Part shown: one piece after another, positions 20,113-43,588 of the stretch | How positions within the stretch are numbered: the first letter of the stretch is position 1 | How the letters are laid out: each line of letters opens with the position of its first letter | NCBI GenBank assembly: GCA_002719695.1 | Contig: PBEQ01000008.1 | Coordinates: forward strand, 14,725 to 58,312 | Source: a bacterium | GTDB lineage: Bacteria > Margulisbacteria > Marinamargulisbacteria > GCA-2716485 > GCA-002719695 | Reading direction: 5' to 3' | DNA: 43,588 nt | Made by a program: the position numbers and the translations under genes | The notes under the pieces: model-generated | Database searches by the model: none | Told to the model about the DNA's origin: nothing | The model's input: only the letters and a program-made list of their open reading frames with translations

Positions 20113-23100
20113 AACAATTTCTAGTTTATCTTTGTTTAATAGTCATGCTAGTTATAAGTAATAACAGCGTGTTAATTGCGCATAATGATTCTCATGAATT
20201 AGCGATTGATTCAAATTATAACTTTATTGTGCCTCCTCGAATTTCGTTTGATGTTCAGTTAGCGGACTCTTCTGGACCATTAAATGGAAATTATTTTGTT
20301 ACGATTCGTATTGGGTCAAAGGCAAATATTAATGAAAACTATGATATGGTGCCATTTCGGTGGATTCGTTCTTTTTCTAATGTTAATTTTCAAAATGGTG
20401 TTGCAAGTTTTGTTTTAGGCGATAATTCGAACCCTATAACACCAAATGATCTAAGTGATTCTGATACTGTTATACAAATTGAGGTTAATCAATTAACAGC
20501 TGCCTTTCCATTGCCATCTGTTCCTTATTCAATTTATTCACAAAGTAGTCTCCATGCTGAGGAAATAAAAGCTGAGAATATTATTGGATCGTTTATTACA
20601 ACAATGAATATTAGCAATGATTTTATTGTTTCAAAAAATGGTGAAATTGCAGTTTATATTGACTCAACGAATCAGCGTGTTGGGGTTGGGAAAAAACCAG
20701 ATTCATCATATGAAATGGATATTAATGGGAGCGTCAATGCTGCTGCCTATTTTATACAAGGAAGTTCAATAGGTGAAATTTTTTCATGGACAAAAAAAGA
20801 TGGAAATCTATTTTATAATGGTAATGTAGGAATTCATACTGAGGATCCTCAGTATGCTTTACATGTTAGTGGTAATATATCAGCAGAAGAGTATTTTGTT
20901 GTAATGGAAGATGCTAATACAGGTGCGAAACAATATGTGACATTAGAGGATCATTTAGCAGCTCAAGGTTTAAACTGGAAAAGTGATGCAAATGAAACTA
21001 ATAGATTAGGAATTTATTACATAGCAGGAAATGTAGGTATTGGTACATCAGAAAATATTGTAGAATCATTAGTTGTATCAGGTGCTATAAAACTTTCTGA
21101 ATCGATTCAAGATGCAGATGACATTAAGCCAGGAACAATTGAATATCGGGAAAATGACTTTATTGCATATTCAGATGCTGGTGAATTTTCTTTAACTGGT
21201 ATTAAAATTGACCCTAATTCTGATAATCTTAATAGTATTCCACGCGGTTCTATTCCTTATTTTGTTGCGGATGGGTTTTTAGATGTTACTGATAATTTTA
21301 AAGTTGTTACTAGTAATGACTTTTTTGGCGTTGCTATTGGTACTGATAATACAACGGCTGCGTTAACAGTTCAGGGTAATGGCCAGGATTCATACCTAGA
21401 GGTTCTATCTGAGCAAAATGAACCTGTTTTTATAGTGAATAAGGATGGCAATATTTCAGTTGGTACGACTAATATTAATGAAAATATAAAATTTAAGATT
21501 GATGGGATTGTTGATGCAACAGAGTTTTTAAAAAATGGTAATCCATTGGCTAGTAGTTTATCTGAAAATTCATTTTGGAATATAGGAGAAACTCATTACG
21601 GAGAGTTAAATCAAGCGGCAACAGATTTGTTTTATTCGGCAGGTTTTGTTGGTATTGGAACAGCTTCACCAAAAAACATGTTAGAACTATCCTCTTCAAC
21701 GGATTCTGTTGCTTTAACATTTGATATTAATGATGTTGATTTATTTACTATTGGAATTACATCAGAGAATGCATCGACATTTGTTATTTCTCAAGGAAGT
21801 AATTTAGATTTACCTATTTTTTCTTTTTCTACAAAGAATATTGGTGTTGGGCTATCAGAACCAAAAGTATCATTACATGTTAGTGGTAATGCTGGATTTC
21901 TCGTGGAAGGTGAAACAGATTTAACGTATTCATTAAGCCAAGATTTTCCAGAGCCCGTAACGGGTTCTGCTATGTTTTATTATCCGGTTAGAGCCGCCTT
22001 TAGAGCAGGGTATGCATCTGATTTAGAATGGTCTGATGCTAATTTAGGTGCTTACAGTGCTGCTTTTGGTTATAATAATATCGCTTCTGGTCTTGCTTCT
22101 TTTGTTGGTGGTGGCTATGAAAATGTTGCATCTGGCGATTATTCTGTTGTTCCGGGAGGTATTCTTAACAAAGCTATCGGTGATTATAGTTTTGCTGGTG
22201 GGTATTATGCGAGTGCACTCCATAATGGATCTTTTGTTTGGGCAGATACGACATCATCCTTAAATCGTTTTGAATCAGCTCAAAATAATCAGTTTTTAAT
22301 TAGAGCTTATGGTGGTGTTGGTATTAATACGAATCAAACCTCAGAGTCTGCTCTTACTGTTCAACATCAAGGATCTGGGGATATTCTAAGATTAATAGGC
22401 AGTGGAGCTTCAGATCAAACGATAGGGGTTTCTTCAAAAGGTCAGTTTTATATGGGTGATCAACCTTCTCCTTCACATGACGATGCTAAGTTACTTGTTT
22501 CTGGTCGTGTTGGTGTTGGAACTGATGATCCAAAAGCATTGTTTCATATTGAAAATACAGATGATGAACAAGCCTATTTAATGTATATCAAAGGATCTAG
22601 TAGTACGAATGCTTCTTCCAATGTGTTTGTAATAACCAATACTGGAAATGTTGGGATTGGTACAGAACATCCAACCGTAAAATTAGCAGTAAGTGGTAAT
22701 ATTAAGGCAGATAGTTTTTTAATGGTTGATCCTGATGATCCTACCGCTGTTATTCAATTACAGCCATCTAACGGGTCGCCATTTCAAATGTATACTGGTT
22801 TGGGGCGTTCGGATGCCTATCGGTTACAAGGTTTTATTGGCTTAGGTACGATGACTCCGAATACATTGTTAGAACTTTCAAATCAAAATGACGTACAAGC
22901 CTTGCCAATTATTACGTTTGATTACAATGATGTTGATATTGTTCAAATGGGACTGATAACATCCAATGAAGGCGTGTTTTTTGCGATAGCACCAAGTTCT
23001 AATTTTACGTCTGAAAATGCAACCTTTGTTATTACTGGTAATTCGGTTATTTTAGGAAGAGGGGTTGTTCCTCCAAATACGAATTTTGCATTAGACGTAA

Positions 23101-26100
23101 GTGGAAATCTTAATATTGATGGCAAACTAGCAGTAGGAACAGATAATGTGTTAAATGACTATGATGTTTTTGTTAATGGTGCTCTTGCCGTTTCTACTTT
23201 AAATATTGGGGGTTCAGATTTTGAACTACCAGACGATAATTTATGGAAGGTTAATGGTGTTAATTTGTATGCTAGTGATAATTATATCGTTTTAATTGGA
23301 ACGGATAATGCGTCGCAATCGTTAACGGATGCCCTGGTTGTTAGTGGCTCTGTTAGAGTTGATAATTTAATTATTAGTGCTAATCAATTTAAACTTGATG
23401 GTGAGTTGGCTGTTGATCACGTTAGATTTCAAGATCAAGCTGTATCGACTCAGTCTGCTAGTGTTTTTGTAGAAGGAGGAGAATTAGTTTTTGAAAAATG
23501 GGATGGAACTAAAAAGTCATTATCGTCTCCATTACAAGCTATTGAAGGTGATAGTAATCAATCAGGACCACTTGCATTTTGGGTTAATAACAATACTATT
23601 TCAAAATCACCATTTTATTGGGATGGTGGCAAAAAAGAATTAGCTATTACTTCTAATGTTGTTATTTCTAATTATGAAGTCCAAGCGAATGGTTTAGAAG
23701 TATCTACCAATGTTTCTTTTTTAGATAGTATTGGTTTTGCTATCGAGACTACTATTGATCATAAGGGGATCGCTAATTCATCAACTGATTATACGCTGTA
23801 TGATTTAGATTTAAATATTGAAGAGGATTGGGGCCGTCAAGGTACGCCGATTGCTATTAGAGGAATCGATTTGAATTTGCGTAATAATGAGGATACCTTG
23901 ATTTTAAATCAAGCATCTGTCACAGGGCTTTATGTGGATGTTACTAGTGTGAATGTTAGTGAATCTCAGTTTGGTAATAAATATGCTGCTAAGTTTTTAG
24001 GTGGTAATGTTGGAATTGGCATTGAAGATCCATCCGTTGCTCTTGAAGTAAATGGTGTTATCTCTGCTAATTATTTTAATATTACTTCAGGAATATCTAT
24101 TCCTGAGCTTGTAATTAATGAAGGTGTATATGCGTTAGTTGTTAAAAAATCCGGAACGGAGGCTCGTGTTGGTATTGGTACCGAGAGTCCACAAACTAGC
24201 TTAGATGTTGATGGAACTGTATCTGCAAATTTATTAACTGTTTCTGGTTTGTTAGTCTCCACAATGAATATAGGCGATGGAAGTTTTGTAGTTGATGCTA
24301 CTGGAAATATTGGTATTGGAACAGATTTTCCAGAAGCTTCTTTTGAAATTAATAGAGTGTTAGATGGATCAAATCAAAATAGTCCATATATTGCCGAAAA
24401 AATATCGTTAGGAATTGATGGAACAACATTAGTTGGTCAAACATATGTTTTTCAGCAAGATCTTACGGGATTGTATCTAGATTTAGATACAATGACAAAT
24501 TCATCAATTCAAGATGCTGAAATTAGAGGACTTGATCTTGATTTGGTATCGGTTAACTTGCGAGGAGATTCTAAATTATATGGTATGTATGTTGATGTTG
24601 GGGCTCCTCAAACTGAAAATAAAAATCGCTATGCTGCTGTTTTTCTAAATGGAAATGTTGGTATTGGAACAGATAATCCAACTGAAGAACTAGTTGTTAG
24701 CGGTAGTATTAAGGCGGACACCTTAATATTGTCAGAAGGCCTTGAGTTTCAGACTGGCATTACAGTTAATAACTCACTTGTTGTGGAGGATGTTGCAAGT
24801 ATGAATAGGGTTTCTATTAATCATTTATATGTTGAAGATTCTTTTTCAGCTAAAAATCTATCATTTGATAATACAGATATTCAGGCAGATAATGCTACCT
24901 TTGGTACAATAACGGCTAATCAAATTTTAGATGTTTCATATGCTAGTATCGATACGGTTTCAGCAAATAACATTGAAGTTAACAACGCTGTTTTTACAGA
25001 TGCCTTATCTGTTGCAACTGATAACATAGAACCAAATACATTAATGGTTAATGGGACTATCAAAGCAATTTCTGCTATTTTTACTGATACTGTGACGGTT
25101 CCTACCTTATCAGTTAATAATGGCACTACGTTGTTTGCTGGAAATAAAAAAGTAGGTATTGGTACAGATACACCAGAGTCTGCATTGCATATTATAAGTA
25201 GTCCAGATAGTGCTTTTGATCAAGCAAATACGGAAACCTGGAATGCATTAAAGATGGGTGTAGATACAGATATTTCTGGACAAACGGTTGGATTTTTATT
25301 TTCTCCTGATGAGCAAGTATCACAAAATATAGGATCAGGGATTTTAGCTCAACGAACAGAATTTGGACAATCTAGTTTATTATTTTTAACGGATCCACCT
25401 AATGATAGTCCTAAAGTAAGGATGATAATTTCGGATGAAGGAACTGTCGGTATTGGTGATATCTCTAACCCTTTAACATTTTCACAAAAAGATTCTAGTA
25501 ATGAGCCTGTAACATTATATGTAAATGGAACAGCAACATTTACCGATACTGTAACAATGGATCGATTGGAAGTTTCTGAAATTACGGGCGAAGTTAACTC
25601 TCTTATTATTAGTGCTAATAATGGGATTGGTTTTCGTGGTGATGTTAGTTTTAATAATCGTGTTCAACTTGATAAGGCACTGGCTTTTAAAAACTCTCGT
25701 AGTTTACAGATTCAACCAACTGAAGTTCCTAGTTCTGTTGGTTATTTGTATGTCTATAATAACGATTTATTTTATGTCAATCAGTCATCATCCAAAAATA
25801 TTTCCTCAGTGTATTCTGGAGACCCTGGAAAAGTTCCCGTATTTGATGATGAAGGTACTTTAAAAAGTTCGTATCCATTATCATTTAATGATAATACCTT
25901 TACAATAGGTACTTCTAATTCTTATACGCAATTTAAACTTGAATCTGTTGTTTCTTCGGATGATTCTGTTGGTGTTCAAGAAATTATTGTTACATTTGAT
26001 AACCGAACTGGTTCTAATACTAGATTTGTCGCATTTGATATTCAAATGGAGGGAGATGATACCTCTGACAGTCTTGGTATTAATGATACTGCTATTGGAC

Positions 26101-29100
26101 TAAATATTGATGTATCGCGTTTGTCTGGTCAGTCAGCAAATGATAATAAGTATGCGGCTATATTTAATGGAGGAAATGTGGGCGTTGGTATATCAGATCC
26201 TGGCGCTCTGTTACATGTTAAACAAGCTGAAAGTGAGAATATATTTCGTGTTGATGGCGATAACTTTATTAGTTTAATGGTTTCTAGTACGGGTAATGTA
26301 GGTGTTGGAACGGCAACTCCGTTAGCCTTATTTGAAATTAAAAAACCTGTTGCTTCTTATCAAGATGATTTGTTTAAAATTGTTTCAGATAATGTTGAGT
26401 TATTAAGGGTATCGTCTAATGGATCTCTTGTTATTCAGGGGGATGTTTCTGCTAATCTTGGTGTTTTTGATGTTGTTAGTGCCAACGCTCTTCGCATTGC
26501 GGATGGTATGTTTTTTGTAAGTTCTAATGGGAATGTTGCTATTGGTACAGATAATGTTGACTTAGGTACTATAACAATTTTAAAGGAGATAGATTCAGCT
26601 CAGACTTCAGATTACATCGGTGAAAAATTAGATGTTGTAATTGATTTTGAAGGGGATGGCGATTTAACGGGAAGTAACTCAAATTGGGATGCTGATTATA
26701 CGTATAATAAAGATTTAACGGGGTTTGATATATCCCTTTCTAATGCTAATGCTAATCAATTTGGGGATTCTAATGACACAGTAATTGCTAAAGGGATTAA
26801 TGTGACTATGAATAACCTAGATCTTGGTTCTAATGCAAAGGCTTATGGTTTATATGTTGATGTTGGGAATGAAGACAAGGGCGGTACTCGCTATGGTGCT
26901 TATTTTAATGGCAATGTAGGTATTGGAACGTTAACGCCAACGTATTCGTTAACGGTTAGTGGCAATGTCTATAGTTCGGGACTAATTGTTGATGGAAATG
27001 TTTCTGCTAATCAGTTAACGGTTAACAATATTATCGTAAATGGTCTTTTAAATGTTGCTGGAGATGTAACGATTAATGGAACATTAACAGCTACAACGAT
27101 TACAGCAAATTCTTTAATTGTAGATGGTGCGGTTCAAGCTGGAGAAGGTATTTATAACACCGTTACGGTTAATCAAAGATTATTTTTACCTCAATCGAGT
27201 CAATTAATTGTTGGAATGGAGGATGGTTTTTCGGATTCAAATTATATTATGTATGTTAGCGGAAATGTAACGTTTAATGGAATTGTTGATGTTGATAAAT
27301 TAAATGTATCAGTAATTTCAGCTAATAATACAACGATTAATATTAGTAGTGTAATAAGTGCTAATAAAATGATTTCAGGTGAGACTATTAGTCTTAATAT
27401 GGTGCAATTTAGTAATAGTGGTTCTACTGTACCAAATTCATTGTTTGTTGATGGCAATAATTTGTATTTTAATAATAGCTCAAGCTCTCCAATTGATTTA
27501 ACATCTTTTTTAACTTCCGAGTATCCTAATCGAATTCCTGTTTATCATGGTTCAACTCTTACCTTAACTTCAAATGTGTATGCATTACAATTTAAAAATA
27601 ATGATACGTTGCAATTGGGAGGAAGTTTAAGTGCTGGAACCTATCAAAACTTAGGATTAGAAATTGGTGGTCAGGTTACTAAGAATTTTACGGGTCATCT
27701 TGTTAGTGTTAATGTTAAAAATGTGACTAGTGGCTCTAAAAACTTTACCGGTGTAAAAATAAACTTTAAGTCAGAGAATTATGGTGGACCTGATCCAAAT
27801 TTATGGGGCAGACTTTCTGAGGGGGACTCAGCTGTTGGTCTTCATGTTGATTTACAGCAATCTTTAGGAGATTATTATGGATTAGGTGGTAATGTTATTG
27901 CTCCAAAAAAATATGCAGCGCTTTTTAATGGAGGACTTGTTGGAATTGGGACAGATACTCCTCAAGCGGCCTTACATGTAAAGCAGTATGAAAATTATTT
28001 TAATATTAGAAAAGATATTTTTAGAGTGGATACCTTTGGAAGTACTACTCCTGCTTTTCTTGTTGATAAAGATGGTAGGGTAGGGATTAATTCTTTAATG
28101 GATAATGATGCCATTACTGCTCAATTTGTTATTGAAGCGGATTCTACAATAAATCCTTTTGTTGTGTCTAGTAACTCAAAGGTTCAGTTTTCGGTCCAAA
28201 CTAATGGTGTAGGGATTCAAACGGAGACTTTAGGAGGAGCTACGTTAGCGGTATCAGGTAATATGTTTGTTAGAGATAGTTTGGGGAATGACCAATTTTT
28301 TGTAAGTGATGATGGGGTAGCAATAGGTCATACTATTCCAACTGCAGATTTAGACATTAAGGGGGATGGAAGTAAGGCATTGCTAAGAATAAGTGATGGT
28401 GTTAATGATCACGTTTATGTGGATAAGGCTGGTAAATTTTATATGGGGACGTTTAATAGTTCTGATGTCCAGGGAACTCCTTTGTATGATTTCAATATCA
28501 TTAATCCAACAAGTAGTATTGCTTTGATTTCTAATAATAATGATCCATTTGCTACTGTAGGTTTACCAACAAAATTAACCGCTCCAGGCAATAACCCTTA
28601 CGGTGTTTTAGCTGTTAATGGTAGTAACAATAACAATAACTTGCTTTTTATGGGACATGTTACAGCTAATGAATCACTTGTATTATTTGGAGGTAGTAAT
28701 AGTCCTCAATTAAATATTGTTGCCTCAACTGATACGAAAGAAAAATTAATTATGGATGTTACTACGCAAGGCTTGGGAATTAATCGCGATTTTCGTACTG
28801 ATACGGCTTTAGCTGTTAGTGGTAACTTTTTTGTTGGCGCTGATGCTAATAATGCTGCCTTTGTTGTAAGTCCTAATAGTAACTTTGTTGGTGTGAATAC
28901 TACAACTCAAATTGGCTCTGAAACGATGAGAGTGGCTGGATCCTTACTTGTTGATGAGCTGGAAGTTGCTGAAGGTGGTATTACGATTACTACCTTAAAT
29001 GTGAATGGCCAATTTGTTTTAAATGATACCTTGAATGGTACATCAGGATCCACATTTGTTGATTTATATGAGTCGGTTTCTTTGAATATAAAGCTAAATA

Positions 29101-30752
29101 CCGATATGACTAATAAGCTATATGGATTAAAAATAGATATGAATTCTAATACAGCTCCTGAATCGGATGAGGATCCTAACTATTTAATGGCAGGTAATGC
29201 GGATGCTTATGGTATTCATGTTGATATGTCTGATTTAAAGGTAGCTGGAGCTGCTTCTGGTACTTATTATGAAAACCTTTTTGGTAATAAGTATGCTGCT
29301 GCTTTTATGGGAGGTGCTGTTGGTATTGGAACGGAAACCCCACGTTATCCTTTAGAAGTAGTGGGTGAATCTAATAGTGTTCTTGCTGGTTTTGGAAGTA
29401 TTGGTTCTGGAATGGTTATTAGGGATTATGGGTTAGGTAAATTAGGAATAAATGTAATTAATGATAGTGTTAATTCTAGTTTAGAGCATATTGGTATTAC
29501 GATTAAGGCTTCTGAAACCAATGGCTCTGGCTATGCTCCTGCATTAGTTGGTATTGGAACTCTAAATCCTGATAAAGCGTTGGTTGTTAATGGAGATATG
29601 CGTTTGGGTGTTCGATCGTTAAATTCTGTAGCTGGTCTATATGGCCGCTATGGAAATAAATTGTTTTTTTCAGGTGGGCCAAGTTATGGTTTAGATAGTG
29701 ATAATGGGGATGATTTGTTTATTGCTAGGTATAATGTTGAGGATAAATCGTCTCATTTACGAGTTAACTTTTCAACTATCAATTCTGATTCGAATGATGA
29801 AGCTGGTGTAGCAAATGGGACAGATCAATTTGTTGTTGGATATACAAAAAGTTCTGGATTGTATCAACCTATTTTAAAGGTTCATAATAATTCAAGAGTT
29901 ACTGTATGGGGCGATACAACCTTAACTACTCAAGCTCAAGATTATTTACCCGATTCAACGTTACATGTTAGAGGGTCAGGTTCTACAAACGATTCAGTAT
30001 TTGGAGATTATACGGCTACTTTAGAAAGAAGTGGTGGGGTTGATAGTGGCGTGCTAGCGTTATCTTATGATACATCAGAGTCGTTAAGTGAAAAGTCAAA
30101 ATTTATTGGTTTTTATAGTGCTCAAACCTTAATTGGTTCAATTGAAGGAAATAGTAATGGTGGTATTCGTTTTGTAACATCAGGTGCGGATTATGCAGAG
30201 TATCTTAAGAAAAAAGATAGTATGGAGTCGTTTGAAAAAGGTGATATTGTAGCGGTTGTTAATGGAGTTATATCAAAAGATACTAGTGATTTTCAGCAGT
30301 TAATGGTTTTAAGTAGTGCGGCTGCTATTGCAGGTAACTGGCCACAAGGTAATAAAGACGATTTTGAGTTGGTTGCATTTTATGGTCAGGTACCAACAAA
30401 GGTAAAAGGTCGTGTGAGCAAAGGAGATTTTATTTTAGCTGGATTTGGTAATGATGGCATTGGTATTGCTAAATCTCAAGATAGCTTAAGTTCACAAGAT
30501 CGTAGTCGTATTGTTGGCCGAGCTTGGGAGTCATCAAATGATCGTGGTGTAAAACTAATTAATACGGCAGTTGGCTTTTCTTTTGGGAATTATTCACTTA
30601 ATGATGAAATGGCTCAACTAAATAATTTAAACAAACAATTAGATGGTCTTCGTTCTGAAAGAGATGATTTATTATCAACGTATCAAACAACTTTAGAAAA
30701 ACAGTCTCAGCATATAGAGACATTATTAATGAAACTTGAAAATAGTCGTTAA
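20109..30752 (+). CDS. Giant (3547 aa) secreted tail-fibre-like adhesin with C-terminal peptidase-G2-like autocleaving chaperone (giant 2)
   Basis: 10.6-kb ORF. Signal peptide, N-terminal ISFDVQLADSSGPLNG...NGVASFVLG...LPSVPYS domain, many GNVGIGTxxP...L(E/D/H)VxG repeats, GGxxNxAxG beta-roll repeats (~21870-22250), GADYAEY...GQVPTKVKG...IVGRAW domain (~30190-30590) and coiled coil. Confidence 0.82.
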   Translation: MKQFLVYLCLIVMLVISNNSVLIAHNDSHELAIDSNYNFIVPPRISFDVQLADSSGPLNGNYFVTIRIGSKANINENYDMVPFRWIRSFSNVNFQNGVASFVLGDNSNPITPNDLSDSDTVIQIEVNQLTAAFPLPSVPYSIYSQSSLHAEEIKAENIIGSFITTMNISNDFIVSKNGEIAVYIDSTNQRVGVGKKPDSSYEMDINGSVNAAAYFIQGSSIGEIFSWTKKDGNLFYNGNVGIHTEDPQYALHVSGNISAEEYFVVMEDANTGAKQYVTLEDHLAAQGLNWKSDANETNRLGIYYIAGNVGIGTSENIVESLVVSGAIKLSESIQDADDIKPGTIEYRENDFIAYSDAGEFSLTGIKIDPNSDNLNSIPRGSIPYFVADGFLDVTDNFKVVTSNDFFGVAIGTDNTTAALTVQGNGQDSYLEVLSEQNEPVFIVNKDGNISVGTTNINENIKFKIDGIVDATEFLKNGNPLASSLSENSFWNIGETHYGELNQAATDLFYSAGFVGIGTASPKNMLELSSSTDSVALTFDINDVDLFTIGITSENASTFVISQGSNLDLPIFSFSTKNIGVGLSEPKVSLHVSGNAGFLVEGETDLTYSLSQDFPEPVTGSAMFYYPVRAAFRAGYASDLEWSDANLGAYSAAFGYNNIASGLASFVGGGYENVASGDYSVVPGGILNKAIGDYSFAGGYYASALHNGSFVWADTTSSLNRFESAQNNQFLIRAYGGVGINTNQTSESALTVQHQGSGDILRLIGSGASDQTIGVSSKGQFYMGDQPSPSHDDAKLLVSGRVGVGTDDPKALFHIENTDDEQAYLMYIKGSSSTNASSNVFVITNTGNVGIGTEHPTVKLAVSGNIKADSFLMVDPDDPTAVIQLQPSNGSPFQMYTGLGRSDAYRLQGFIGLGTMTPNTLLELSNQNDVQALPIITFDYNDVDIVQMGLITSNEGVFFAIAPSSNFTSENATFVITGNSVILGRGVVPPNTNFALDVSGNLNIDGKLAVGTDNVLNDYDVFVNGALAVSTLNIGGSDFELPDDNLWKVNGVNLYASDNYIVLIGTDNASQSLTDALVVSGSVRVDNLIISANQFKLDGELAVDHVRFQDQAVSTQSASVFVEGGELVFEKWDGTKKSLSSPLQAIEGDSNQSGPLAFWVNNNTISKSPFYWDGGKKELAITSNVVISNYEVQANGLEVSTNVSFLDSIGFAIETTIDHKGIANSSTDYTLYDLDLNIEEDWGRQGTPIAIRGIDLNLRNNEDTLILNQASVTGLYVDVTSVNVSESQFGNKYAAKFLGGNVGIGIEDPSVALEVNGVISANYFNITSGISIPELVINEGVYALVVKKSGTEARVGIGTESPQTSLDVDGTVSANLLTVSGLLVSTMNIGDGSFVVDATGNIGIGTDFPEASFEINRVLDGSNQNSPYIAEKISLGIDGTTLVGQTYVFQQDLTGLYLDLDTMTNSSIQDAEIRGLDLDLVSVNLRGDSKLYGMYVDVGAPQTENKNRYAAVFLNGNVGIGTDNPTEELVVSGSIKADTLILSEGLEFQTGITVNNSLVVEDVASMNRVSINHLYVEDSFSAKNLSFDNTDIQADNATFGTITANQILDVSYASIDTVSANNIEVNNAVFTDALSVATDNIEPNTLMVNGTIKAISAIFTDTVTVPTLSVNNGTTLFAGNKKVGIGTDTPESALHIISSPDSAFDQANTETWNALKMGVDTDISGQTVGFLFSPDEQVSQNIGSGILAQRTEFGQSSLLFLTDPPNDSPKVRMIISDEGTVGIGDISNPLTFSQKDSSNEPVTLYVNGTATFTDTVTMDRLEVSEITGEVNSLIISANNGIGFRGDVSFNNRVQLDKALAFKNSRSLQIQPTEVPSSVGYLYVYNNDLFYVNQSSSKNISSVYSGDPGKVPVFDDEGTLKSSYPLSFNDNTFTIGTSNSYTQFKLESVVSSDDSVGVQEIIVTFDNRTGSNTRFVAFDIQMEGDDTSDSLGINDTAIGLNIDVSRLSGQSANDNKYAAIFNGGNVGVGISDPGALLHVKQAESENIFRVDGDNFISLMVSSTGNVGVGTATPLALFEIKKPVASYQDDLFKIVSDNVELLRVSSNGSLVIQGDVSANLGVFDVVSANALRIADGMFFVSSNGNVAIGTDNVDLGTITILKEIDSAQTSDYIGEKLDVVIDFEGDGDLTGSNSNWDADYTYNKDLTGFDISLSNANANQFGDSNDTVIAKGINVTMNNLDLGSNAKAYGLYVDVGNEDKGGTRYGAYFNGNVGIGTLTPTYSLTVSGNVYSSGLIVDGNVSANQLTVNNIIVNGLLNVAGDVTINGTLTATTITANSLIVDGAVQAGEGIYNTVTVNQRLFLPQSSQLIVGMEDGFSDSNYIMYVSGNVTFNGIVDVDKLNVSVISANNTTINISSVISANKMISGETISLNMVQFSNSGSTVPNSLFVDGNNLYFNNSSSSPIDLTSFLTSEYPNRIPVYHGSTLTLTSNVYALQFKNNDTLQLGGSLSAGTYQNLGLEIGGQVTKNFTGHLVSVNVKNVTSGSKNFTGVKINFKSENYGGPDPNLWGRLSEGDSAVGLHVDLQQSLGDYYGLGGNVIAPKKYAALFNGGLVGIGTDTPQAALHVKQYENYFNIRKDIFRVDTFGSTTPAFLVDKDGRVGINSLMDNDAITAQFVIEADSTINPFVVSSNSKVQFSVQTNGVGIQTETLGGATLAVSGNMFVRDSLGNDQFFVSDDGVAIGHTIPTADLDIKGDGSKALLRISDGVNDHVYVDKAGKFYMGTFNSSDVQGTPLYDFNIINPTSSIALISNNNDPFATVGLPTKLTAPGNNPYGVLAVNGSNNNNNLLFMGHVTANESLVLFGGSNSPQLNIVASTDTKEKLIMDVTTQGLGINRDFRTDTALAVSGNFFVGADANNAAFVVSPNSNFVGVNTTTQIGSETMRVAGSLLVDELEVAEGGITITTLNVNGQFVLNDTLNGTSGSTFVDLYESVSLNIKLNTDMTNKLYGLKIDMNSNTAPESDEDPNYLMAGNADAYGIHVDMSDLKVAGAASGTYYENLFGNKYAAAFMGGAVGIGTETPRYPLEVVGESNSVLAGFGSIGSGMVIRDYGLGKLGINVINDSVNSSLEHIGITIKASETNGSGYAPALVGIGTLNPDKALVVNGDMRLGVRSLNSVAGLYGRYGNKLFFSGGPSYGLDSDNGDDLFIARYNVEDKSSHLRVNFSTINSDSNDEAGVANGTDQFVVGYTKSSGLYQPILKVHNNSRVTVWGDTTLTTQAQDYLPDSTLHVRGSGSTNDSVFGDYTATLERSGGVDSGVLALSYDTSESLSEKSKFIGFYSAQTLIGSIEGNSNGGIRFVTSGADYAEYLKKKDSMESFEKGDIVAVVNGVISKDTSDFQQLMVLSSAAAIAGNWPQGNKDDFELVAFYGQVPTKVKGRVSKGDFILAGFGNDGIGIAKSQDSLSSQDRSRIVGRAWESSNDRGVKLINTAVGFSFGNYSLNDEMAQLNNLNKQLDGLRSERDDLLSTYQTTLEKQSQHIETLLMKLENSR

Positions 30753-37156: not shown

Positions 37157-37363
37157 GTGAAAAAAAAAGTATGGAATAAATATATTAATTTGCTGATTCG
37201 ATTAGGGTTATCTATGTTAGCAAGTATTTTTATTTTTTTTTCTATGGGATTGTTTTTAGCTAACTATTTACCTTATGCGGAGGTTTTAATTGTTGGAGGA
37301 ACATTAATAGGTGTGTTTGTAGGGTTTTATTTAATTTATGTTCAGCTAAAAGGTTTTTTTTAA
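37157..37363 (+). CDS. AtpZ/AtpQ-like ATP synthase accessory membrane protein (ATPase gene 1)
   Basis: 68 aa with two TM helices and a GxxxG pattern. First gene of the atp cluster. Confidence 0.7.
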   Translation: MKKKVWNKYINLLIRLGLSMLASIFIFFSMGLFLANYLPYAEVLIVGGTLIGVFVGFYLIYVQLKGFF

Positions 37364-37758
37364 TGTTTGTATTATCAAGAAATTTAAAATTTATAATTAA
37401 TAAGCTACATAAAATTATTTTGATTGAGTTTTCTTTGCTCGGTACAATTTTTTATTTTATCGATAAATCATATATTGGCTCATCATTATTAGGTTTATTA
37501 TTTAGTTTTTTTATCATACTTGATTTTGCTTATGCAGAATATGCTATTTTACATGGAAGAAAGAAAGGCCTGTTTTTTGTTTATTATCTTTCTCGAATCG
37601 TATTGTATGCAATTCCTCTTGTTTTTGGACTAGTGTTTAAAAACTATTTTAATTTTTTTGTAATTTTGATATTCTTATTTTCCTATCAAATTCATTTCAT
37701 AGGGTTTGAATTTTTTAGAAGTTTAAAAAAAATGAAAAGGCAAAATTTTAATGGATAA
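37363..37758 (+). CDS. atpI: ATP synthase protein I
   Basis: 131 aa, about four TM helices, YYLSRIVLY motif, directly upstream of atpB. Confidence 0.75.
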   Translation: MFVLSRNLKFIINKLHKIILIEFSLLGTIFYFIDKSYIGSSLLGLLFSFFIILDFAYAEYAILHGRKKGLFFVYYLSRIVLYAIPLVFGLVFKNYFNFFVILIFLFSYQIHFIGFEFFRSLKKMKRQNFNG

Positions 37759-38605
37759 ACTTGGTGAAGTATCACAGGCTACGTTGACGTTATTTGGGTT
37801 GTCGATAACCTATAATCCTATTACTTTCTTAATGACTTGGGTTGTGATTTTGTTTATATTAGTTTCTGCCTTAGCTGCAAGAAAAAAAATGTCTTTAGTT
37901 CCAGGTTTTTTACAGTCTATTTTTGAATTAATCTATGACTTTTTAAAAGATATTACGCTAGGTACTTTAGGTGATGAAGATGGTCGAAAGCATCTTCCTT
38001 TTATAATTTCTTTATTTGTTTTTATTTTGTGTGCTAATTGGATTGGTATATTGCCAAACGTATTTGCTATGTTTGGAACATTGCTCGGTGTGGTTTTTTC
38101 GTTTTTTGATTCATCCATTATAGTTACTTTTAATTCATTAATTGACATTAGTTTGTCTATTCCTGAAAATCGTTGGTTTTCATTTTTGTTTGATCTTCCT
38201 GCGTTTGAGGAGCCTACTCGTTCAGTAAACATGGATTTGGCTTTAGGTTTATTGGTGTTTGCTGCTGTTCAGGCTTATGGTGTTAAAAATAAAGGTTTTT
38301 GGGGGTATTTAAAAAGTTATTATAATGATCCATTTCCAATGAAAGGGTGGATGGCGCTGTTCTTTTTTCTTAATCCGTTTTTCTATTTAAATTTAATTGG
38401 CGCTGTTGCTAATGTTGTTTCTCATTCTTTTCGTTTGTTTGGTAATATTTTTGGTGGCGGTATGATTATTGTGATTGTTTCTAGTTTATTAAAGTTTTTT
38501 ATAGTCCCTGTAGGATTATTTGCTTTTTTTGGTATTTTTGCTGGGTTGGTACAGGCCTTTGTTTTTACAATGTTAGCTGTTACGTACATACAGCAGCAGC
38601 AATAA
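37751..38605 (+). CDS. atpB: ATP synthase Fo subunit a
   Basis: PGFLQSIFE, NWIGILP, SHSFRLFGNI (essential Arg) and VQAFVFTMLAVTY. Confidence 0.95.
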   Translation: MDKLGEVSQATLTLFGLSITYNPITFLMTWVVILFILVSALAARKKMSLVPGFLQSIFELIYDFLKDITLGTLGDEDGRKHLPFIISLFVFILCANWIGILPNVFAMFGTLLGVVFSFFDSSIIVTFNSLIDISLSIPENRWFSFLFDLPAFEEPTRSVNMDLALGLLVFAAVQAYGVKNKGFWGYLKSYYNDPFPMKGWMALFFFLNPFFYLNLIGAVANVVSHSFRLFGNIFGGGMIIVIVSSLLKFFIVPVGLFAFFGIFAGLVQAFVFTMLAVTYIQQQQ

Positions 38606-38616
38606 GGAGATAAGTT

Positions 38617-39324
38617 ATGTTAGTATCTAGTTTGTTTTCTGTTATTGGATCTGGAATAGCGATGGGTCTAGGATCTATAGGTAGTGCTGTTGGGGAGGGA
38701 ATGATTGCTATGAGTGCCGTTGATTCTTTAGGTAGACAGCCGAAAGCATCTCCAAAAATTCTTCGAATTATGATCATTGCACAAGCAGTTACTGAAACTG
38801 CTGCCATTTTTGCGCTTGTGATATCGCTCTTGTTATTGTTTCAAGCAGGTACCGATTCATTGTTTAAAGGTGTAACGTATTTATCGGCAGGGCTTGCCAT
38901 TGGTTTAGGGACAATAGGCGCTGGGCTAGGTGCTGGTTTACCTGGTGCTGCTGCAATGAAAGGGATTGGAAAGCAGCCTAAGAACTCCGATGTGTTAACG
39001 GTGCATATGATTATTGGGCAAGCTGTAACACAAACGTCAACTATATTTGCATTAACAGTTTCATTAATACTTATTATGTTAGCGCCTGATGGAGGTCTTT
39101 TGAAAATGGCAGCTTGTTTGGGAGCTGGGCTTGCAATGGGTTTTGGAGCTGTAGGGCCTGGAATAGGAGATGGGTTAGTAGCTCGGTTTGCAAATTTAGG
39201 TGTTGCGAGAGATCCACGGAATATGGGATTATTAACTCGTACCATGATTATTGGTCAAGCAATTACAGAAACAACAGATATTTATGCAATGGTTGTTTCT
39301 TTAATTTTAATTTTTGTAATATAA
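38617..39324 (+). CDS. atpE: Triplicated ATP synthase c subunit (three helical hairpins)
   Basis: Three c-like units with loops RQP/KQP/RDP and outer-helix motifs AVTETAAIF, AVTQTSTIF and AITETTDIY. AAGGAG RBS. Confidence 0.92.
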   Translation: MLVSSLFSVIGSGIAMGLGSIGSAVGEGMIAMSAVDSLGRQPKASPKILRIMIIAQAVTETAAIFALVISLLLLFQAGTDSLFKGVTYLSAGLAIGLGTIGAGLGAGLPGAAAMKGIGKQPKNSDVLTVHMIIGQAVTQTSTIFALTVSLILIMLAPDGGLLKMAACLGAGLAMGFGAVGPGIGDGLVARFANLGVARDPRNMGLLTRTMIIGQAITETTDIYAMVVSLILIFVI

Positions 39325-39339
39325 AATGGAGGTAAGAAA

Positions 39340-39591
39340 ATGGAAATGATTACAGGAGAACAATTAATTAAAGCTTTAGCTTTATTAGCTGCGGGTTTAT
39401 CAATGGGATTGGGTGCTGTAGGACCTGGTATCGGTGAAGGTTTTGTTGGTGGAAAAGCGTGTGAGTCTATAGGTAGACGACCAGATGAAGCAAACTTAAT
39501 CACAAAAACAATGATTATTGGTCAGGCAATTTCTGAGACAACTGGAATTTATGCTTTGGTTGTTGCTCTTATTTTAATTTTTGTTGTCTAA
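39340..39591 (+). CDS. atpE: ATP synthase Fo subunit c, Na+-binding signature
   Basis: GPGIGEG...RRP...GQAISETTGIY (E33, E66, T67, T68, Y71). GGAGG RBS. Confidence 0.96.
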   Translation: MEMITGEQLIKALALLAAGLSMGLGAVGPGIGEGFVGGKACESIGRRPDEANLITKTMIIGQAISETTGIYALVVALILIFVV

Positions 39592-39603: not shown

Positions 39604-40089
39604 GTGATTTCAATTAATATTTATGAAATCATCATGCAGATGGTTAATTTTTTAATCTTGCTGTATTTATTGAATCGATTTTTAATTAAACCTTTGTCAG
39701 AATTTATTGAAAAGCGCTCAGGTGATATTAAATCTGATATTGAAACTGCAAAAGAAAATAAAGAGGAATCTTCTAAGTTGTTAGAGGAGCAAAAATCAGT
39801 ATTAAATAATGCAAGACAAGAAGCAAAATCTATTAGAGAAAAAGCTGAGCAAATTTCTCTTAAAGAAAAAGAACAGGTTTTATCTGATGCTAAAAAAGAG
39901 TCAGAACAAATGTTGAAGCAAGCAAGAAAAGACATCGATTTAGTTGTCGATAAAGCAAAAAAAGATTTAGTTAATGAGGTTGGCCACTTGTCGATTACGT
40001 TAGCTGAGACTGTTTTAAAAAGAACGATTGATCATAAGGATAAGGAAACACTTATTTCTGATGGGTTAAACAAGATATCAATATCATGA
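39604..40089 (+). CDS. atpF: ATP synthase Fo subunit b
   Basis: QMVNFLILLYLL...KPL...EKR followed by a charged coiled coil. AAGGAG RBS, GTG start. Confidence 0.95.
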   Translation: MISINIYEIIMQMVNFLILLYLLNRFLIKPLSEFIEKRSGDIKSDIETAKENKEESSKLLEEQKSVLNNARQEAKSIREKAEQISLKEKEQVLSDAKKESEQMLKQARKDIDLVVDKAKKDLVNEVGHLSITLAETVLKRTIDHKDKETLISDGLNKISIS

Positions 40090-40616
40090 AGTATGTATTA
40101 CTTGCATCTCGATATGTAAAAGCATTTTCGAATTGTTTTGATTCGGATTCTGATAAAATTTCTCAATTAAGTATATTAGCAGATGTTATTTCTAAAGTTT
40201 ATCTTGAAAAAGGTGTTGTTGATATGATCAATGATCCAACAGTTACATCCTCTAAAAAGTTTAGTGTTTTATCTTTGTATGTCCCTAGTGGTAATAAGAT
40301 GCTAACTAATTTTCTTTCTCTTTTGATTCAAAAAGATCGATTTTTTCTTTTAGACGATATGGCTACTATTGTTGAATCTATGATTTATGATTTAAAGAAA
40401 GAAGTTCCCGCAACTGTTTATTCATCTGTTTCTTTACAACCTAAAGATAAACAGACGATTCTTGCATATTTAAAATCTTATTTTAAAAAAGATGTGGATT
40501 TAAAAATGATCGTTGATGAATCGATTTTAGCAGGCGTTAAGGTAGAAGCAAACAATACAGTTTTTGATGCAACGCTTGATAATTCATTAAAAAATTTAAA
40601 ATTAGCATTTCAATAA
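40086..40616 (+). CDS. atpH: ATP synthase F1 subunit delta
   Basis: ASRYVKA, NFLSLLIQKDR and VDESILAGV...VFDATL. Position between atpF and atpA. Confidence 0.92.
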   Translation: MKYVLLASRYVKAFSNCFDSDSDKISQLSILADVISKVYLEKGVVDMINDPTVTSSKKFSVLSLYVPSGNKMLTNFLSLLIQKDRFFLLDDMATIVESMIYDLKKEVPATVYSSVSLQPKDKQTILAYLKSYFKKDVDLKMIVDESILAGVKVEANNTVFDATLDNSLKNLKLAFQ

Positions 40617-40631
40617 AAGGAAGGTAATGTT

Positions 40632-42143
40632 ATGAAGTTTAAACCAGAAGAAATTACAGGGGTGATTGAAGATCAAATTAAGAATTTTGATATGAATGTA
40701 GAAGAAAAAGAAACAGGTAAGGTTTTACAGGTTGGAGATGGAATTGCTCGAGTTTATGGTCTTGAAAGTGTTATGTCTGGAGAGTTGGTTAAATTTGCTT
40801 CAGGCGTTCAGGGTGTTGTTTTAAACTTAGAAGAGGATAACGTAGGTGTTGTTATTTTAGGAAACGGTTCTTCGATTAAAGAAGGTGACGTTGTTGAAAG
40901 AACAAAACGTATTATGGATATTCCTGTAGGGGATGCCTTACTTGGTCGTGTTGTTAATCCATTAGGGGAACCGATTGATGGTGTTGGTGATATCGTTACT
41001 GATTTAAGACGACCTATAGAGCGAATTGCTCCCGGTGTTTGTGATAGACAGCCTGTTTCTGAGCCACTACAAACTGGAATTAAATGTATAGATACAATGA
41101 TTCCTGTTGGTAGAGGACAAAGAGAATTGATTATTGGTGATAGAAAGACTGGAAAGACTGCGATTGCTTTAGATACTATTATTAACCAAAAGGGTGGGGA
41201 TATAATCTGTGTTTATGTTGGTATTGGTCAAAAGAAGTCTACTGTATCAAGAGTAATTCAAACTCTAAAAGATCATGGCGCTATGGATTACACTGTTGTT
41301 GTAAATGCAGCTGCTTCTGATTCTGCAACATTACAATACTTAGCACCGTATGCCGGTTGTGCGATTGGTGAAGAATTTCTTGATAATGGTAAACACGTGT
41401 TAGTAGTTTATGATGATTTGTCTAAACATGCCGTTGCATATAGACAGTTATCATTGCTTCTTCGTAGACCACCAGGTAGAGAAGCATTTCCGGGGGATGT
41501 TTTTTATCTTCATTCACGTTTATTAGAGAGAGCACTTAAATATTCTGATGAAAAAGGTGGCGGATCTTTAACTGCTTTACCAATTATCGAAACTCAATCT
41601 GGTGATGTATCTGCTTATATTCCTACCAATGTAATTTCAATTACAGATGGTCAAATTTATTTAGAGTCTAATCTTTTTAACAAAGGAATTCGTCCAGCTG
41701 TTAATCCTGGAATTTCAGTTTCAAGGGTTGGTGGTAGTGCCCAGATAAAAGCAACAAAAAAAGTGTCTGGTAGATTACGATTAGATCTTTCTCAATATTG
41801 GGAAATTGAAGCATTTGCTCAGTTTGGTTCTGATTTAGATTCCGCAACAAAACAACAGTTAGAAAGAGGTAAACGTTTAATTGAAGTTTTAAAGCAAGAT
41901 CAATTTAATCCTTTACGTATATCTCAGCAAATTGTCATTATATATGCAGCTGTTCATGGACATTTAGATGATATAGCACTTGATAAGATAAGTGAATTTG
42001 AAAAAGCAGTGTTTTCACTTTTGAACTCCGAGCATGCTGGTTTGCTTGATAAACTTGAAACTGAAAAAGATTTATCGGATGAAATAGTGACTTCAATTCA
42101 AGAAATTATTAATGAAGTAAGAAAATTGTTTGTAGAAGTATAA
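40632..42143 (+). CDS. atpA: ATP synthase F1 subunit alpha
   Basis: [41 protein letters not shown] and [13 protein letters not shown]. Confidence 0.98.

Positions 42144-43016: not shown

Positions 43017-43588
<572 letters not shown>

What the first reader, a model, noticed from the sequence alone, without database searches (positions are those of the whole stretch)
38617..39591. Hybrid rotor: triple-hairpin c subunit with a silenced middle site alongside a normal c subunit
Seen: hairpin 1 has E27/E60 (ETAAIF), hairpin 2 has A106/Q139 (QTSTIF, both carboxylates lost) and hairpin 3 has D185/E218 plus an unusual D221 (ETTDIY). A canonical 83-aa c gene follows. Known: Acetobacterium woodii builds a hybrid Na+ ring from single hairpins plus a two-hairpin c1 lacking one Glu, and three-hairpin proteolipids are known from the A-type enzyme of Methanocaldococcus jannaschii. 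A three-hairpin c in a bacterial F-type operon is not something I recognise as characterised. Inference: a heteromeric ring with fewer ion sites than hairpins, altering or tuning the ion/ATP ratio.
Basis: partly seen in the sequence, partly recalled or inferred. Interest (0 to 1): 0.78.

Follow-up and report, generated by a model that had tools for sequence, protein, structure and literature searches.

The report
Three-hairpin ATP synthase rotor subunit
A marine bacterium's ordinary ATP synthase operon encodes, next to the normal small rotor subunit, a conserved protein made of three such units fused together with the middle ion site switched off, which should change how many sodium ions the motor uses per ATP.

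Summary
An 83-aa single-hairpin c gene with a complete two-carboxylate Na+ motif follows, inside a canonical F-type operon.

It is not an artefact:
- The hairpins are only 39-46% identical to each other.
- 97 of 107 three-hairpin proteins, query included, keep the same E,E / A,Q / D,E,D pattern.
- All three hairpins are under purifying selection.
- 22 of 22 complete related loci have the c3-then-c1 gene pair.

The genome looks like Candidatus Marinamargulisbacteria and carries Na+-NQR genes.

Ion sites lie between hairpins. Correlated degeneration (63 of 70 pairs) and a published motif rule assign c3 one canonical site, one dead site and one atypical D185/E218/D221 site.

My best reading is an Acetobacterium woodii-like hybrid Na+ ring with fewer sites than hairpins. 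Co-assembly of c3 with c1 is inferred, not shown. Related proteins with 2 to 5 hairpins occur in other phyla. Seven literature searches found no description. This scan had already noted the same family on other DNA.

The parts
37157..37363 (+). 68-aa small membrane protein, AtpZ / ATPase_gene1-like; first gene of the atp operon
   Evidence: PF09527, E 3.4e-08, 33.8 bits, above the 26.6-bit cut-off
37363..37758 (+). 131-aa hydrophobic ORF in the position where atpI usually sits. Its family is not established.
   Evidence: No Pfam family. Only a sub-threshold NCBIfam hit (MG406 family, 16.4 bits against a 40-bit cut-off). Calling it AtpI-like rests on position alone.
37751..38605 (+). F-type subunit a (284 aa)
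   Evidence: PF00119, E 7.8e-44. The sequence contains ...SHSFRLFGN..., with the Arg expected in the a-subunit helix that faces the ring (read; the role of this Arg is recalled).
38617..39324 (+). c3: 235-aa c subunit of three hairpins and six helices. An AAGGAG Shine-Dalgarno lies upstream.
   Evidence: Three PF00137 stretches. AlphaFold2 mean pLDDT 93.8 with six long helices; DSSP lists a break at residue 139 in the fourth. Conserved in 106 homologues. Shine-Dalgarno read.
38617..38847 (+). Hairpin 1 (residues 1-77): E27 and E60 carboxylates; T61/A62/F65 is a degenerate neighbour-serving triad; loop GRQP
   Evidence: signature EVETAAF
38848..39087 (+). Hairpin 2 (residues 78-157): A106/Q139, no carboxylate; triad T140/S141/F144; loop GKQP
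   Evidence: signature AVQTSTF. Median dN/dS 0.139, so it is still under selection.
39088..39324 (+). Hairpin 3 (residues 158-235 plus stop): D185/E218 plus D221; full triad T219/T220/Y223; loop ARDP
   Evidence: signature DIETTDY. It is the hairpin closest to the single c, at 59% identity.
39340..39591 (+). c1: 83-aa single-hairpin c subunit with the two-carboxylate Na+ motif (E33, E66, T67, T68, Y71). A GGAGG Shine-Dalgarno lies upstream.
   Evidence: PF00137, E 6.9e-20. Aligns residue by residue with the Na+ rings 4bem_A, 3zk1_A and 1yce_A. Mean column identity 82% over 22 orthologues.
39604..40089 (+). Subunit b
   Evidence: PF00430, E 3.6e-26
40086..40616 (+). Subunit delta (OSCP)
   Evidence: PF00213, E 1.8e-28
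40632..42143 (+). Subunit alpha
   Evidence: PF00006, PF00306 and PF02874
42147..43007 (+). Subunit gamma
   Evidence: PF00231, E 8.8e-83
43029..43586 (+). Subunit beta, N-terminal part; runs off the window and contig end
   Evidence: PF02874 and PF00006. A further PF00006 fragment on contig C49 may be the rest of the gene; this was not checked.

Best explanation
c3 is a genuine rotor-ring subunit of the organism's only detected ATP synthase, an F-type enzyme that is probably Na+-coupled. Its six helices form three adjacent hairpins of the c ring. The ring is completed by copies of the 83-aa c1, as in the A. woodii c1/c2/c3 hybrid ring.

Each ion site is built from the helix-1 residue and the helix-2 Glu of hairpin i+1, plus the 66/67/70 triad (Ilyobacter tartaricus numbering) of hairpin i. 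On that basis c3 contributes four interfaces:
(a) A canonical two-carboxylate Na+ site at its N-terminal edge. E27/E60 are completed by the T/T/Y triad of the preceding subunit.
(b) A dead interface between h1 and h2, with A106/Q139 facing T61/A62/F65.
(c) An atypical site between h2 and h3, with D185/E218/D221 facing T140/S141/F144.
(d) A full T219/T220/Y223 triad that completes the site of the following subunit.

Each c3 in the ring therefore removes one ion site per three hairpins, and possibly alters a second. This lowers the Na+/ATP ratio below hairpins divided by three.

Shown: the anatomy, its conservation, the operon context, the Na+ motif of c1, and the Na+-NQR genes. Inferred: co-assembly with c1, the number of c3 copies per ring, the coupling ion, and the effect on the ratio.
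For: 1. Anatomy. Three PF00137 hairpins and a confident six-helix model. All three cytoplasmic loops keep the [R/K]-x-P motif (GRQP, GKQP, ARDP), read. That motif's role in contacting the central stalk is recalled, not tested.
2. Selection. 97 of 107 proteins keep the pattern. Median dN/dS is 0.141, 0.139 and 0.133 for h1, h2 and h3, and 0.068 for c1, with dS near saturation.
3. Context. The gene sits between a and b in a canonical Z-(I)-a-c3-c1-b-delta-alpha-gamma-beta operon. All 4 PF00137 hits in the 1.33-Mb, 74%-complete genome lie in this operon.
4. Linkage. 22 of 22 complete Marinamargulis-type loci have c3 followed by an ~83-aa c. Multi-hairpin loci of Desulfobacterota, Brocadiia and Planctomycetota also hold a single-hairpin c gene, though not always adjacent.
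5. Na+ coupling. c1 aligns with the F. nucleatum, I. tartaricus and A. woodii Na+ rings and has E/E/T/T/Y at the ligand positions. The motif is defined in passages of PMC3692424. nqrA and nqrB lie on contig C46. Na+-NQR is reported for Marinamargulisbacteria in passages of 10.1101/328856.
6. Site geometry. Over 23 distinct signatures, the triad state of hairpin i matches the active or dead status of hairpin i+1 in 63 of 70 consecutive pairs. The opposite direction matches in 22 of 70. A. woodii c1 obeys the same rule (alignment). So does the motif rule for double-hairpin subunits in preprint 10.64898/2026.10.01.756066.
7. Closest solved relative. A. woodii c1, 4bem_J, gives sequence E 2.1e-19, and Foldseek rmsd 1.6 A over 158 columns.
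8. Transcript-library contigs. Contigs from two marine metatranscriptome studies bridge the c3 stop and the c1 start: X2 record 7 and X3 record 12 with 0 differences, X1 record 3 with 7. This is weak, because such libraries can contain DNA.
Against: There is no direct evidence that c3 enters a ring, or of its copy number.

The h2/h3 site departs from the Na+ motif. It has Asp instead of Glu/Gln on helix 1, Phe instead of Tyr on the neighbour, and an extra Asp at position 68. It may therefore not transport Na+ like the others. If it is also inactive, c3 has one working site, not two.

7 of the 70 pairs break the triad rule, and the window's own h2-to-h3 pair is one of the degenerate-triad-with-active-site type. 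The signatures counted come from related proteins and are not independent.

The hairpin tree is a quick tree on 83 columns with weak support: 87-88 SH-aLRT for the cross-phylum groupings.

The genome is only 74% complete, so a second ATPase cannot be excluded.

In one search the search was by this protein at E <= 1e-10. 86 of 146 genomes of the phylum had no match at all, and 114 had no three-hairpin-length match. These include well-assembled genomes of the same class. The design is therefore not universal in the group.
Confidence: 0.68

Rival explanations
1. Alternative rotors. c3 and c1 do not mix. The cell builds either homomeric c3 rings (hairpin number a multiple of three, two carboxylates per three hairpins) or ordinary c1 rings, giving two gear ratios.
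For: Each gene has its own strong Shine-Dalgarno. h3's full triad (T219/T220/Y223) could complete the E27/E60 site of another c3 as well as that of c1. In archaea, rings of multi-hairpin subunits alone are known. That is stated in passages of 10.64898/2026.10.01.756066.
Against: The two genes are adjacent in one operon in 22 of 22 complete loci, with gaps of about 15-80 bases or a short overlap. RNA-library contigs span the junction. Both facts argue against independent regulation. The only characterised bacterial precedent, A. woodii, is a mixed ring of nine single hairpins plus one four-helix subunit (passage).
Confidence: 0.12
2. Structural or assembly role only. One c3 per ring acts as nucleus or size-setter for ring assembly. 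The loss of one site is a by-product with little bioenergetic meaning.
For: A. woodii has a single c1 per ring (passage). c1 evolves about half as fast as the c3 hairpins, as expected if c1 is the multi-copy majority component. The operon keeps AtpZ-like and AtpI-position genes. A requirement of AtpI for A. woodii ring assembly is recalled, not checked.
Against: The dead interface is kept very precisely, with Q139 in 106 of 107 proteins and A or S at position 106 in 105 of 107. Relatives extend the number of dead hairpins to two or three per protein. That looks like selection on the number of sites rather than on a nucleus.
Confidence: 0.15
3. The enzyme is H+-coupled, or mixes ions. The two-carboxylate motif and the D/E/D site bind protons, and the Na+ motif is misleading.
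For: The h2/h3 site fails the published Na+ rule because it has no Tyr and has Asp on helix 1. Passages of PMC3692424 show that two-carboxylate sites hold an additional proton.
Against: c1 carries every Na+ ligand of the solved Na+ rings. The genome has Na+-NQR, and the relatives come from marine samples.
Confidence: 0.1
4. Not functional: an assembly artefact or a decaying tandem duplication.
For: None beyond the loss of the middle carboxylate.
Against: Hairpins are 39-46% identical to each other. 106 homologues have an intact frame. 32 of 146 phylum genomes give a three-hairpin-length match. dN/dS is about 0.14 in every hairpin. The model has pLDDT 93.8.
Confidence: 0.02

Closest known systems
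Acetobacterium woodii (and Clostridium aceticum) Na+ F1Fo ATP synthase hybrid rotor: c1 (two hairpins, one site) plus c2/c3 monomers; PDB 4BEM
   Same: It is an F-type operon with a multi-hairpin c gene placed directly before a single-hairpin c gene. One hairpin has Gln in place of the carboxylate. The monomer has a Na+ motif. The hairpin before the dead one carries Phe instead of Tyr at position 70 (alignment). It is the best sequence and fold match. A lowered Na+/ATP ratio is the accepted interpretation in passages of PMC7911925.
   Different: There are three hairpins rather than two. The dead hairpin is internal, not C-terminal. Helix 1 carries Glu or Asp (two-carboxylate type) rather than Gln. 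The third site has an extra Asp (D221) and a Phe-bearing neighbour. The organism is a marine Na+-NQR bacterium rather than an energy-limited acetogen. Ring composition is unknown here.
Fusobacterium nucleatum c11 ring (PDB 3ZK1), two-carboxylate Na+ motif
   Same: c1 and hairpin 1 of c3 have Glu on both helices. c1 also has the full T/T/Y set, equivalent to E32, E65, S66, T67 and Y70.
   Different: The F. nucleatum ring is a homomer of single hairpins, and every site is active.
Archaeal A-type multi-hairpin proteolipids (for example the triplicated Methanocaldococcus jannaschii subunit and the 13-hairpin Methanopyrus kandleri subunit)
   Same: Several hairpins are fused in one polypeptide, and some hairpins lack the carboxylate. 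M. kandleri is mentioned in a passage. M. jannaschii is recalled only.
   Different: Those belong to A1Ao operons and form rings on their own. This one sits in a bacterial F-type operon beside a monomeric c. Its hairpins score best against F-type c models (NF009999, 161.2 bits).
Multi-hairpin F-type c genes of Desulfobacterota, Planctomycetota and others (3+1, 4+1, 2+1 loci; 5-hairpin proteins)
   Same: The logic is the same: the first hairpin is active with a degenerate triad, the middle hairpin or hairpins have Gln, the last hairpin is c1-like, and a separate monomeric c gene sits in the locus. h1 groups with h1 and middle hairpins with middle hairpins in the quick tree, at 87 and 88 SH-aLRT.
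   Different: They are 38-48% identical to the window protein. They have different numbers of dead hairpins and no D at position 68. As far as my searches reach, they are known only from databases and are not described in print.

Membership tests
F-type ATP synthase subunit c (PF00137 / NCBIfam F0F1 subunit C models) | Helical-hairpin domain matching the family model above its cut-off | tested here: met
   PF00137 at 140.7 bits (cut-off 24) with three stretches. NF009999 at 161.2 bits (cut-off 124).
F-type ATP synthase subunit c (PF00137 / NCBIfam F0F1 subunit C models) | Gene lies between subunits a and b in an F1Fo operon | tested here: met
   a (PF00119), c3, c1, b (PF00430), delta, alpha, gamma, beta
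F-type ATP synthase subunit c (PF00137 / NCBIfam F0F1 subunit C models) | Ion-binding carboxylate in the middle of the C-terminal helix of each hairpin | tested here: not met
   Present in h1 (E60) and h3 (E218). Replaced by Q139 in h2. The feature is met for two of three hairpins, so this is an atypical member.
A. woodii-type F/V hybrid rotor | Multi-hairpin c gene and single-hairpin c gene side by side in one F-type operon | tested here: met
   38617-39324 and 39340-39591. The same pair occurs in 22 of 22 complete related loci.
A. woodii-type F/V hybrid rotor | One hairpin of the long subunit lacks the carboxylate (Glu to Gln) | tested here: met
   Q139, conserved in 106 of 107 proteins
A. 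woodii-type F/V hybrid rotor | Long subunit has two hairpins (four helices, V-type-like) | tested here: not met
   Three hairpins and six helices. No PDB chain covers all three; best TM-score normalised to the query is 0.61.
A. woodii-type F/V hybrid rotor | Both subunits assemble into one ring | not testable with these tools
   This needs isolated rings. The single complex prediction is reported under Tried and rejected.
A. woodii-type F/V hybrid rotor | Na+ coupling: complete Na+ ligand set in the monomeric c | tested here: met
   E33, E66, T67, T68 and Y71 align with the ligands of 3zk1, 1yce and 4bem_A. This tests the motif only; no activity was measured.
N-ATPase (alternate F1Fo, TIGR03322 c subunit) | c subunit above the TIGR03322 cut-off, and an operon that starts with beta-epsilon and has AtpQ/AtpR | tested here: not met
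   TIGR03322 gives 128.7 bits for c3 (three stretches summed) and 65.5 for c1, against a cut-off of 130.85. The operon order is the canonical F-type order. The N-ATPase gene order is recalled.
Archaeal A-type triplicated proteolipid | Encoded in an A1Ao (V/A-type) operon and matching subunit K models | tested here: not met
   V-type subunit K models are far below their cut-offs, for example NF004913 at 66.5 bits against 211. The neighbours are F-type subunits.

The most novel reading that the evidence does not exclude
Bacterial F-type ATP synthases have a widespread and so far undescribed way of setting their gear ratio: fused c subunits of 3 to 5 hairpins in which defined inter-hairpin sites are switched off. 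In this marine clade several c3 copies would enter each ring. The Na+/ATP ratio would then fall well below hairpins divided by three, for example 8 sites on 12 hairpins, or 2.7 per ATP. The ring would also mix three kinds of site: a canonical two-carboxylate Na+ site, a dead site, and a three-carboxylate D185/E218/D221 site with different ion affinity or specificity. D185 and D221 appear to vary together. Both are lost in each of the two proteins where D185 is replaced (V/V in P0121, S/S in L022). D221 is Ala in the one lineage where h2 regained Glu.
Probability: 0.3. Interest if true: 0.82.

Novelty: new variant of a known kind. Interest (0 to 1): 0.62.

Why it matters
The ion/ATP ratio of an ATP synthase is usually read off the number of c hairpins. 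The A. woodii ring is, so far as I found, the only characterised bacterial F-type case where that rule fails.

This gene shows the same principle taken further, with three hairpins and an internal dead interface. It does so in an abundant group of uncultured marine bacteria that run a sodium cycle, and it belongs to a much larger set of 2- to 5-hairpin F-type c genes in several phyla.

If rings contain these subunits, bioenergetic budgets inferred from genomes (ATP per Na+ or H+) are wrong for these organisms. The family would also offer a natural series for testing how many silent positions a rotating ring tolerates. The conserved D185/E218/D221 site is a further, untested variant of ion-site chemistry.

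Tried and rejected
Complex prediction of c3 (alignment A1) with c1 (alignment A2). The verdict was weak support: score 0.54, best of 3 controls 0.00. The mark was reached by 58 of 80 solved complexes and 2 of 110 mismatched pairs. At 0.60 or under, only 7 of those 80 and both mismatches reached it. The runs agree in at least 98% of contacts, and the partner's pLDDT is at least 84. A like complex (4BEM) is solved, so the pass may reflect memory of that structure. I do not count it as evidence either way.

Hairpin tree. The careful search did not finish in 288 s. Only the quick tree on 83 columns is available, and 41 of its 87 inner branches are unresolved. I use it as a hint that h1 and the middle hairpins are position-specific across phyla, not as proof of a single origin or of transfer.

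Metatranscriptome runs. All 8 runs hold 15% or less of the sampled words. The 4 runs laid are contigs, so they give no expression level, strand or c3:c1 ratio. Parts without cover mean nothing.

Papers. Matthies et al. 2014 (PMC4228694) is not held. [quoted passage not shown] Its survey of distribution could already list longer c subunits. Supplements of the 2026 preprint could not be opened and might list multi-hairpin F-type c genes. Two searches failed on term format.

N-ATPase reading: rejected (and the operon order). Artefact or pseudogene reading: rejected.

I could not obtain model coordinates. The position of D221 relative to E218 and F144 comes from helical-wheel reasoning only.

The library searched carries no names, so the 150 representatives cannot be sorted into F-type and A/V-type with certainty.
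Full report
**1. What is in the sequence**

Window 38617-39324 (+) is one 235-aa open frame. It matches Pfam ATP-synt_C three times, with a whole-protein E of 1.7e-41.
- E27 and E60 in hairpin 1.
- A106 and Q139 in hairpin 2.
- D185, E218 and D221 in hairpin 3.

An 83-aa ORF with a single ATP-synt_C domain follows at 39340-39591. Both genes have a Shine-Dalgarno sequence, AAGGAG and GGAGG.

The three hairpins share only 39-46% of residues with each other. Hairpin 3 shares 59% with the single c. This is an old fusion, not an assembly duplication. AlphaFold2 run on 30 homologues gives six long helices in three hairpins, with mean pLDDT 93.8 and pTM 0.88.

**2. Context**

The gene order is:
- a 68-aa AtpZ-like protein (PF09527);
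- a 131-aa hydrophobic ORF with no family hit;
- subunit a, c3, c1, b, delta, alpha, gamma, and beta, which is cut by the contig end.

This is the canonical F-type order. It is not the N-ATPase order, and the N-ATPase c model stays below its cut-off.

In the window's own genome (1.33 Mb, 53 contigs, 74% complete) the only four ATP-synt_C matches are these four hairpins. c3 therefore belongs to the only rotary ATPase found there. The same genome carries nqrA and nqrB next to each other on contig C46.

Named relatives of c3 are Candidatus Marinamargulisbacteria single-cell genomes and MAGs. Passages of 10.1101/328856 describe Na+-NQR and an aerobic respiratory chain for that group. In the 12 of 13 places shown, they say nothing about its c subunits.

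**3. Conservation**

The protein search returned 820 hits, of which the best 120 were listed. Of the 107 proteins of 225-242 aa, query included, 97 have exactly E,E / A,Q / D,E,D at the seven columns. Q139 is kept in 106, E60 and E218 in all 107, and D221 in 105.

The genome-contig scan matched 200 stretches. 98 of them encode a relative, and 79 distinct loci were kept. All 22 complete Marinamargulis-type loci (L005-L026) have the three-hairpin ORF followed by an ORF of about 83 aa with one hairpin. Two more loci are cut by contig ends.

Across 146 genomes of the phylum, 32 gave a match spanning at least 177 of the 235 residues. Of these, 29 are full length without stops, one has an in-frame TAA, and two are cut by contig ends. 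27 are in the window's class or closer, and 5 are in other classes at 47-49% identity. 86 genomes had no match at E <= 1e-10, several of them more than 90% complete.

For 17 genomes, median dN/dS is 0.141, 0.139 and 0.133 for hairpins 1, 2 and 3, and 0.068 for c1. dS is about 1.6-1.8, so these values are rough. The hairpin without a carboxylate is as constrained as the others. c1 is the most constrained, with 82% mean column identity.

**4. Ion sites**

c1 aligns residue for residue with three solved Na+-binding rings: A. woodii c2/3 (4bem_A), F. nucleatum (3zk1_A) and I. tartaricus (1yce_A). It carries E, E, T, T and Y at the positions equivalent to 32, 65, 66, 67 and 70.

Passages of PMC3692424 state that each site lies between two adjacent subunits. 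Glu32 and Glu65 come from one subunit. Ser66 and the Val63 carbonyl come from the neighbour. Thr67 holds a water, and Tyr70 hydrogen-bonds Glu65.

In a fused subunit one must therefore ask which neighbour serves which site. I extracted the seven-column signature of every hairpin in 155 multi-hairpin proteins, which gave 49 distinct signatures. I then took the 23 distinct signatures left after removing those recognised by a simple filter for the Marinamargulis pattern; one divergent member of that group slipped through. In those 23, a full triad (Ser/Thr at 67 and Tyr at 70) in hairpin i goes with a carboxylate in hairpin i+1, and a degenerate triad goes with its absence, in 63 of 70 consecutive pairs. 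The opposite assignment fits only 22 of 70. These proteins are related, so the counts are descriptive rather than a statistical test.

Two independent observations agree with this direction. First, A. woodii c1 has ...ETSGIF in hairpin 1, before the dead ...QTTGIY hairpin 2 (alignment). Second, preprint 10.64898/2026.10.01.756066 requires the [STQ][STQ]xxY motif in the first hairpin and the Glu in the second hairpin of double-hairpin subunits.

Applied to the window protein, the interfaces are:
- **Preceding subunit to h1.** E27/E60 are completed by the T/T/Y triad of whatever precedes, either c1 or the h3 of another c3. This is a canonical two-carboxylate Na+ site.
- **h1 to h2.** A106/Q139 face T61/A62/F65. 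This interface is dead on both sides.
- **h2 to h3.** D185/E218/D221 face T140/S141/F144. A carboxylate is present, but Asp replaces Glu/Gln, the Tyr is missing, and there is a third acidic residue one helical turn from E218.
- **h3 to following subunit.** T219/T220/Y223 complete the next subunit's site.

The third site is unusual rather than simply active.

D185 and D221 seem coupled. In the two proteins where D185 is replaced, D221 is replaced as well (V/V in P0121, S/S in L022). In the one lineage where hairpin 2 regained Glu (P0045, L008), D221 is Ala. Numbers are too small for more than a note.

**5. Relatives with other hairpin numbers**

The same search found five proteins with four hairpins and seven with five hairpins. 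In these the first hairpin is active, the middle ones carry Gln, and the last is either active or carries a full triad. One named example is from Desulfatitalea sp. BRH_c12.

The loci show the following arrangements, each with a single-hairpin c in the locus:
- 3+1 in Desulfobacteraceae and a Brocadiia MAG.
- 4+1 in eight Desulfobacterota-type loci.
- 2+1 in a Planctomycetota MAG.

A full HMMER scan of 1.84 billion cluster representatives found 1608 proteins at E <= 0.001, 370 at E <= 1e-10 and 81 at E <= 1e-30. Among the best 150, my hairpin model counts 24 with two hairpins, 47 with three, 70 with four, 4 with five and 5 with six to thirteen. Some are fragments. That library has no names, so part of them are surely archaeal or V-type.

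In a quick tree of 93 hairpins, Marinamargulis h1 groups with Desulfobacterota h1 (87 SH-aLRT), and the middle hairpins group together (88). h3 falls with the single c subunits. This suggests that the multi-hairpin gene is older than the class or was transferred, but the tree is weak.

**6. How it most likely works**

The closest characterised system is the A. woodii hybrid ring. 4bem_J is the best match by sequence (E 2.1e-19). It is also the best match by fold (rmsd 1.6 A over 158 columns), and no solved chain covers all three hairpins. That ring contains nine single hairpins and one four-helix subunit (passage). It is taken to lower the Na+/ATP ratio (passages of PMC7911925).

By analogy, c3 should sit in the ring as three neighbouring hairpins flanked by c1 copies. 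Several observations fit this:
- Its loops keep the [R/K]-x-P motif.
- Its edges are compatible with c1 on both sides.
- Its gene is locked to c1 in every complete locus.

Each c3 removes one site, so sites equal hairpins minus the number of c3 copies. With 11 hairpins, one, two or three c3 copies would give 10, 9 or 8 sites. These numbers are illustrative, because the ring size is unknown.

Contigs from marine RNA libraries of two studies bridge the c3 stop and the c1 start. This is consistent with co-transcription but does not prove it. The complex prediction gave only weak support and is listed under Tried and rejected.

**7. Novelty**

Seven full-text searches found no paper describing an F-type c subunit with three or more hairpins. 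None of the 25 papers listed contains 'three-hairpin' or 'triple-hairpin'. The October 2026 preprint states that F-type rings are predominantly built of single hairpins and that duplications are much rarer than in A-type enzymes.

I could not read Matthies 2014, Brandt and Muller 2015 or any supplements, so an earlier listing cannot be excluded.

Earlier notes of this scan describe the same family on other genomes, including Margulisbacteria-like ones. I re-derived the points I use. I rate this a new variant of a known kind: the hybrid-rotor principle extended to three hairpins with an internal dead interface and an atypical third site.

**8. Verdict**

I put 0.68 on a hybrid, probably Na+-coupled ring with fewer sites than hairpins.

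Noticed in passing
window 4194-18554 (+) and 20109-30752 (+): Two giant ORFs of 4786 aa and 3547 aa lie in a genome of about 1.3 Mb. Neither matches any Pfam family at E <= 1e-5. Together they fill more than half of the window.
   Followed up: partly
window 37363-37758 (+): The 131-aa hydrophobic ORF in the usual atpI position has no Pfam match and only a sub-threshold NCBIfam hit (MG406 family, 16.4 bits against 40). Its stop overlaps the start of subunit a by 8 bases.
   Followed up: partly
L008 1605-2318 (also P0045): In one Marinamargulis lineage hairpin 2 has regained a Glu at the carboxylate position (signature VVEVSGF), and D221 is Ala. This may be a natural revertant of the silenced site.
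   Followed up: no
P0021, P0027, P0123 (five-hairpin proteins); P0143 (three hairpins): Some relatives keep a carboxylate in only one of five hairpins. P0143 shows none in any of its three hairpins by my column extraction. Its signature is AVSTPSF SVQSASF AVQSTAY. I did not check this against an alignment error or against context.
   Followed up: no
G000 contigs C22:15183-15812 and C7:40584-41213: Two further strong ATP-synt_ab (PF00006) matches lie in ORFs of 438 and 436 aa outside the atp operon. Their size suggests flagellar or type III export ATPases rather than a second rotary ATPase. This was not examined.
   Followed up: no
L005, L006, L009, L023 (record titles): Several contigs carrying near-identical c3-c1 loci are filed under unrelated names: Actinomycetota, Rickettsiales and Alteromonas sp. 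MAGs. These are probably mislabelled or mis-binned Marinamargulisbacteria contigs.
   Followed up: no
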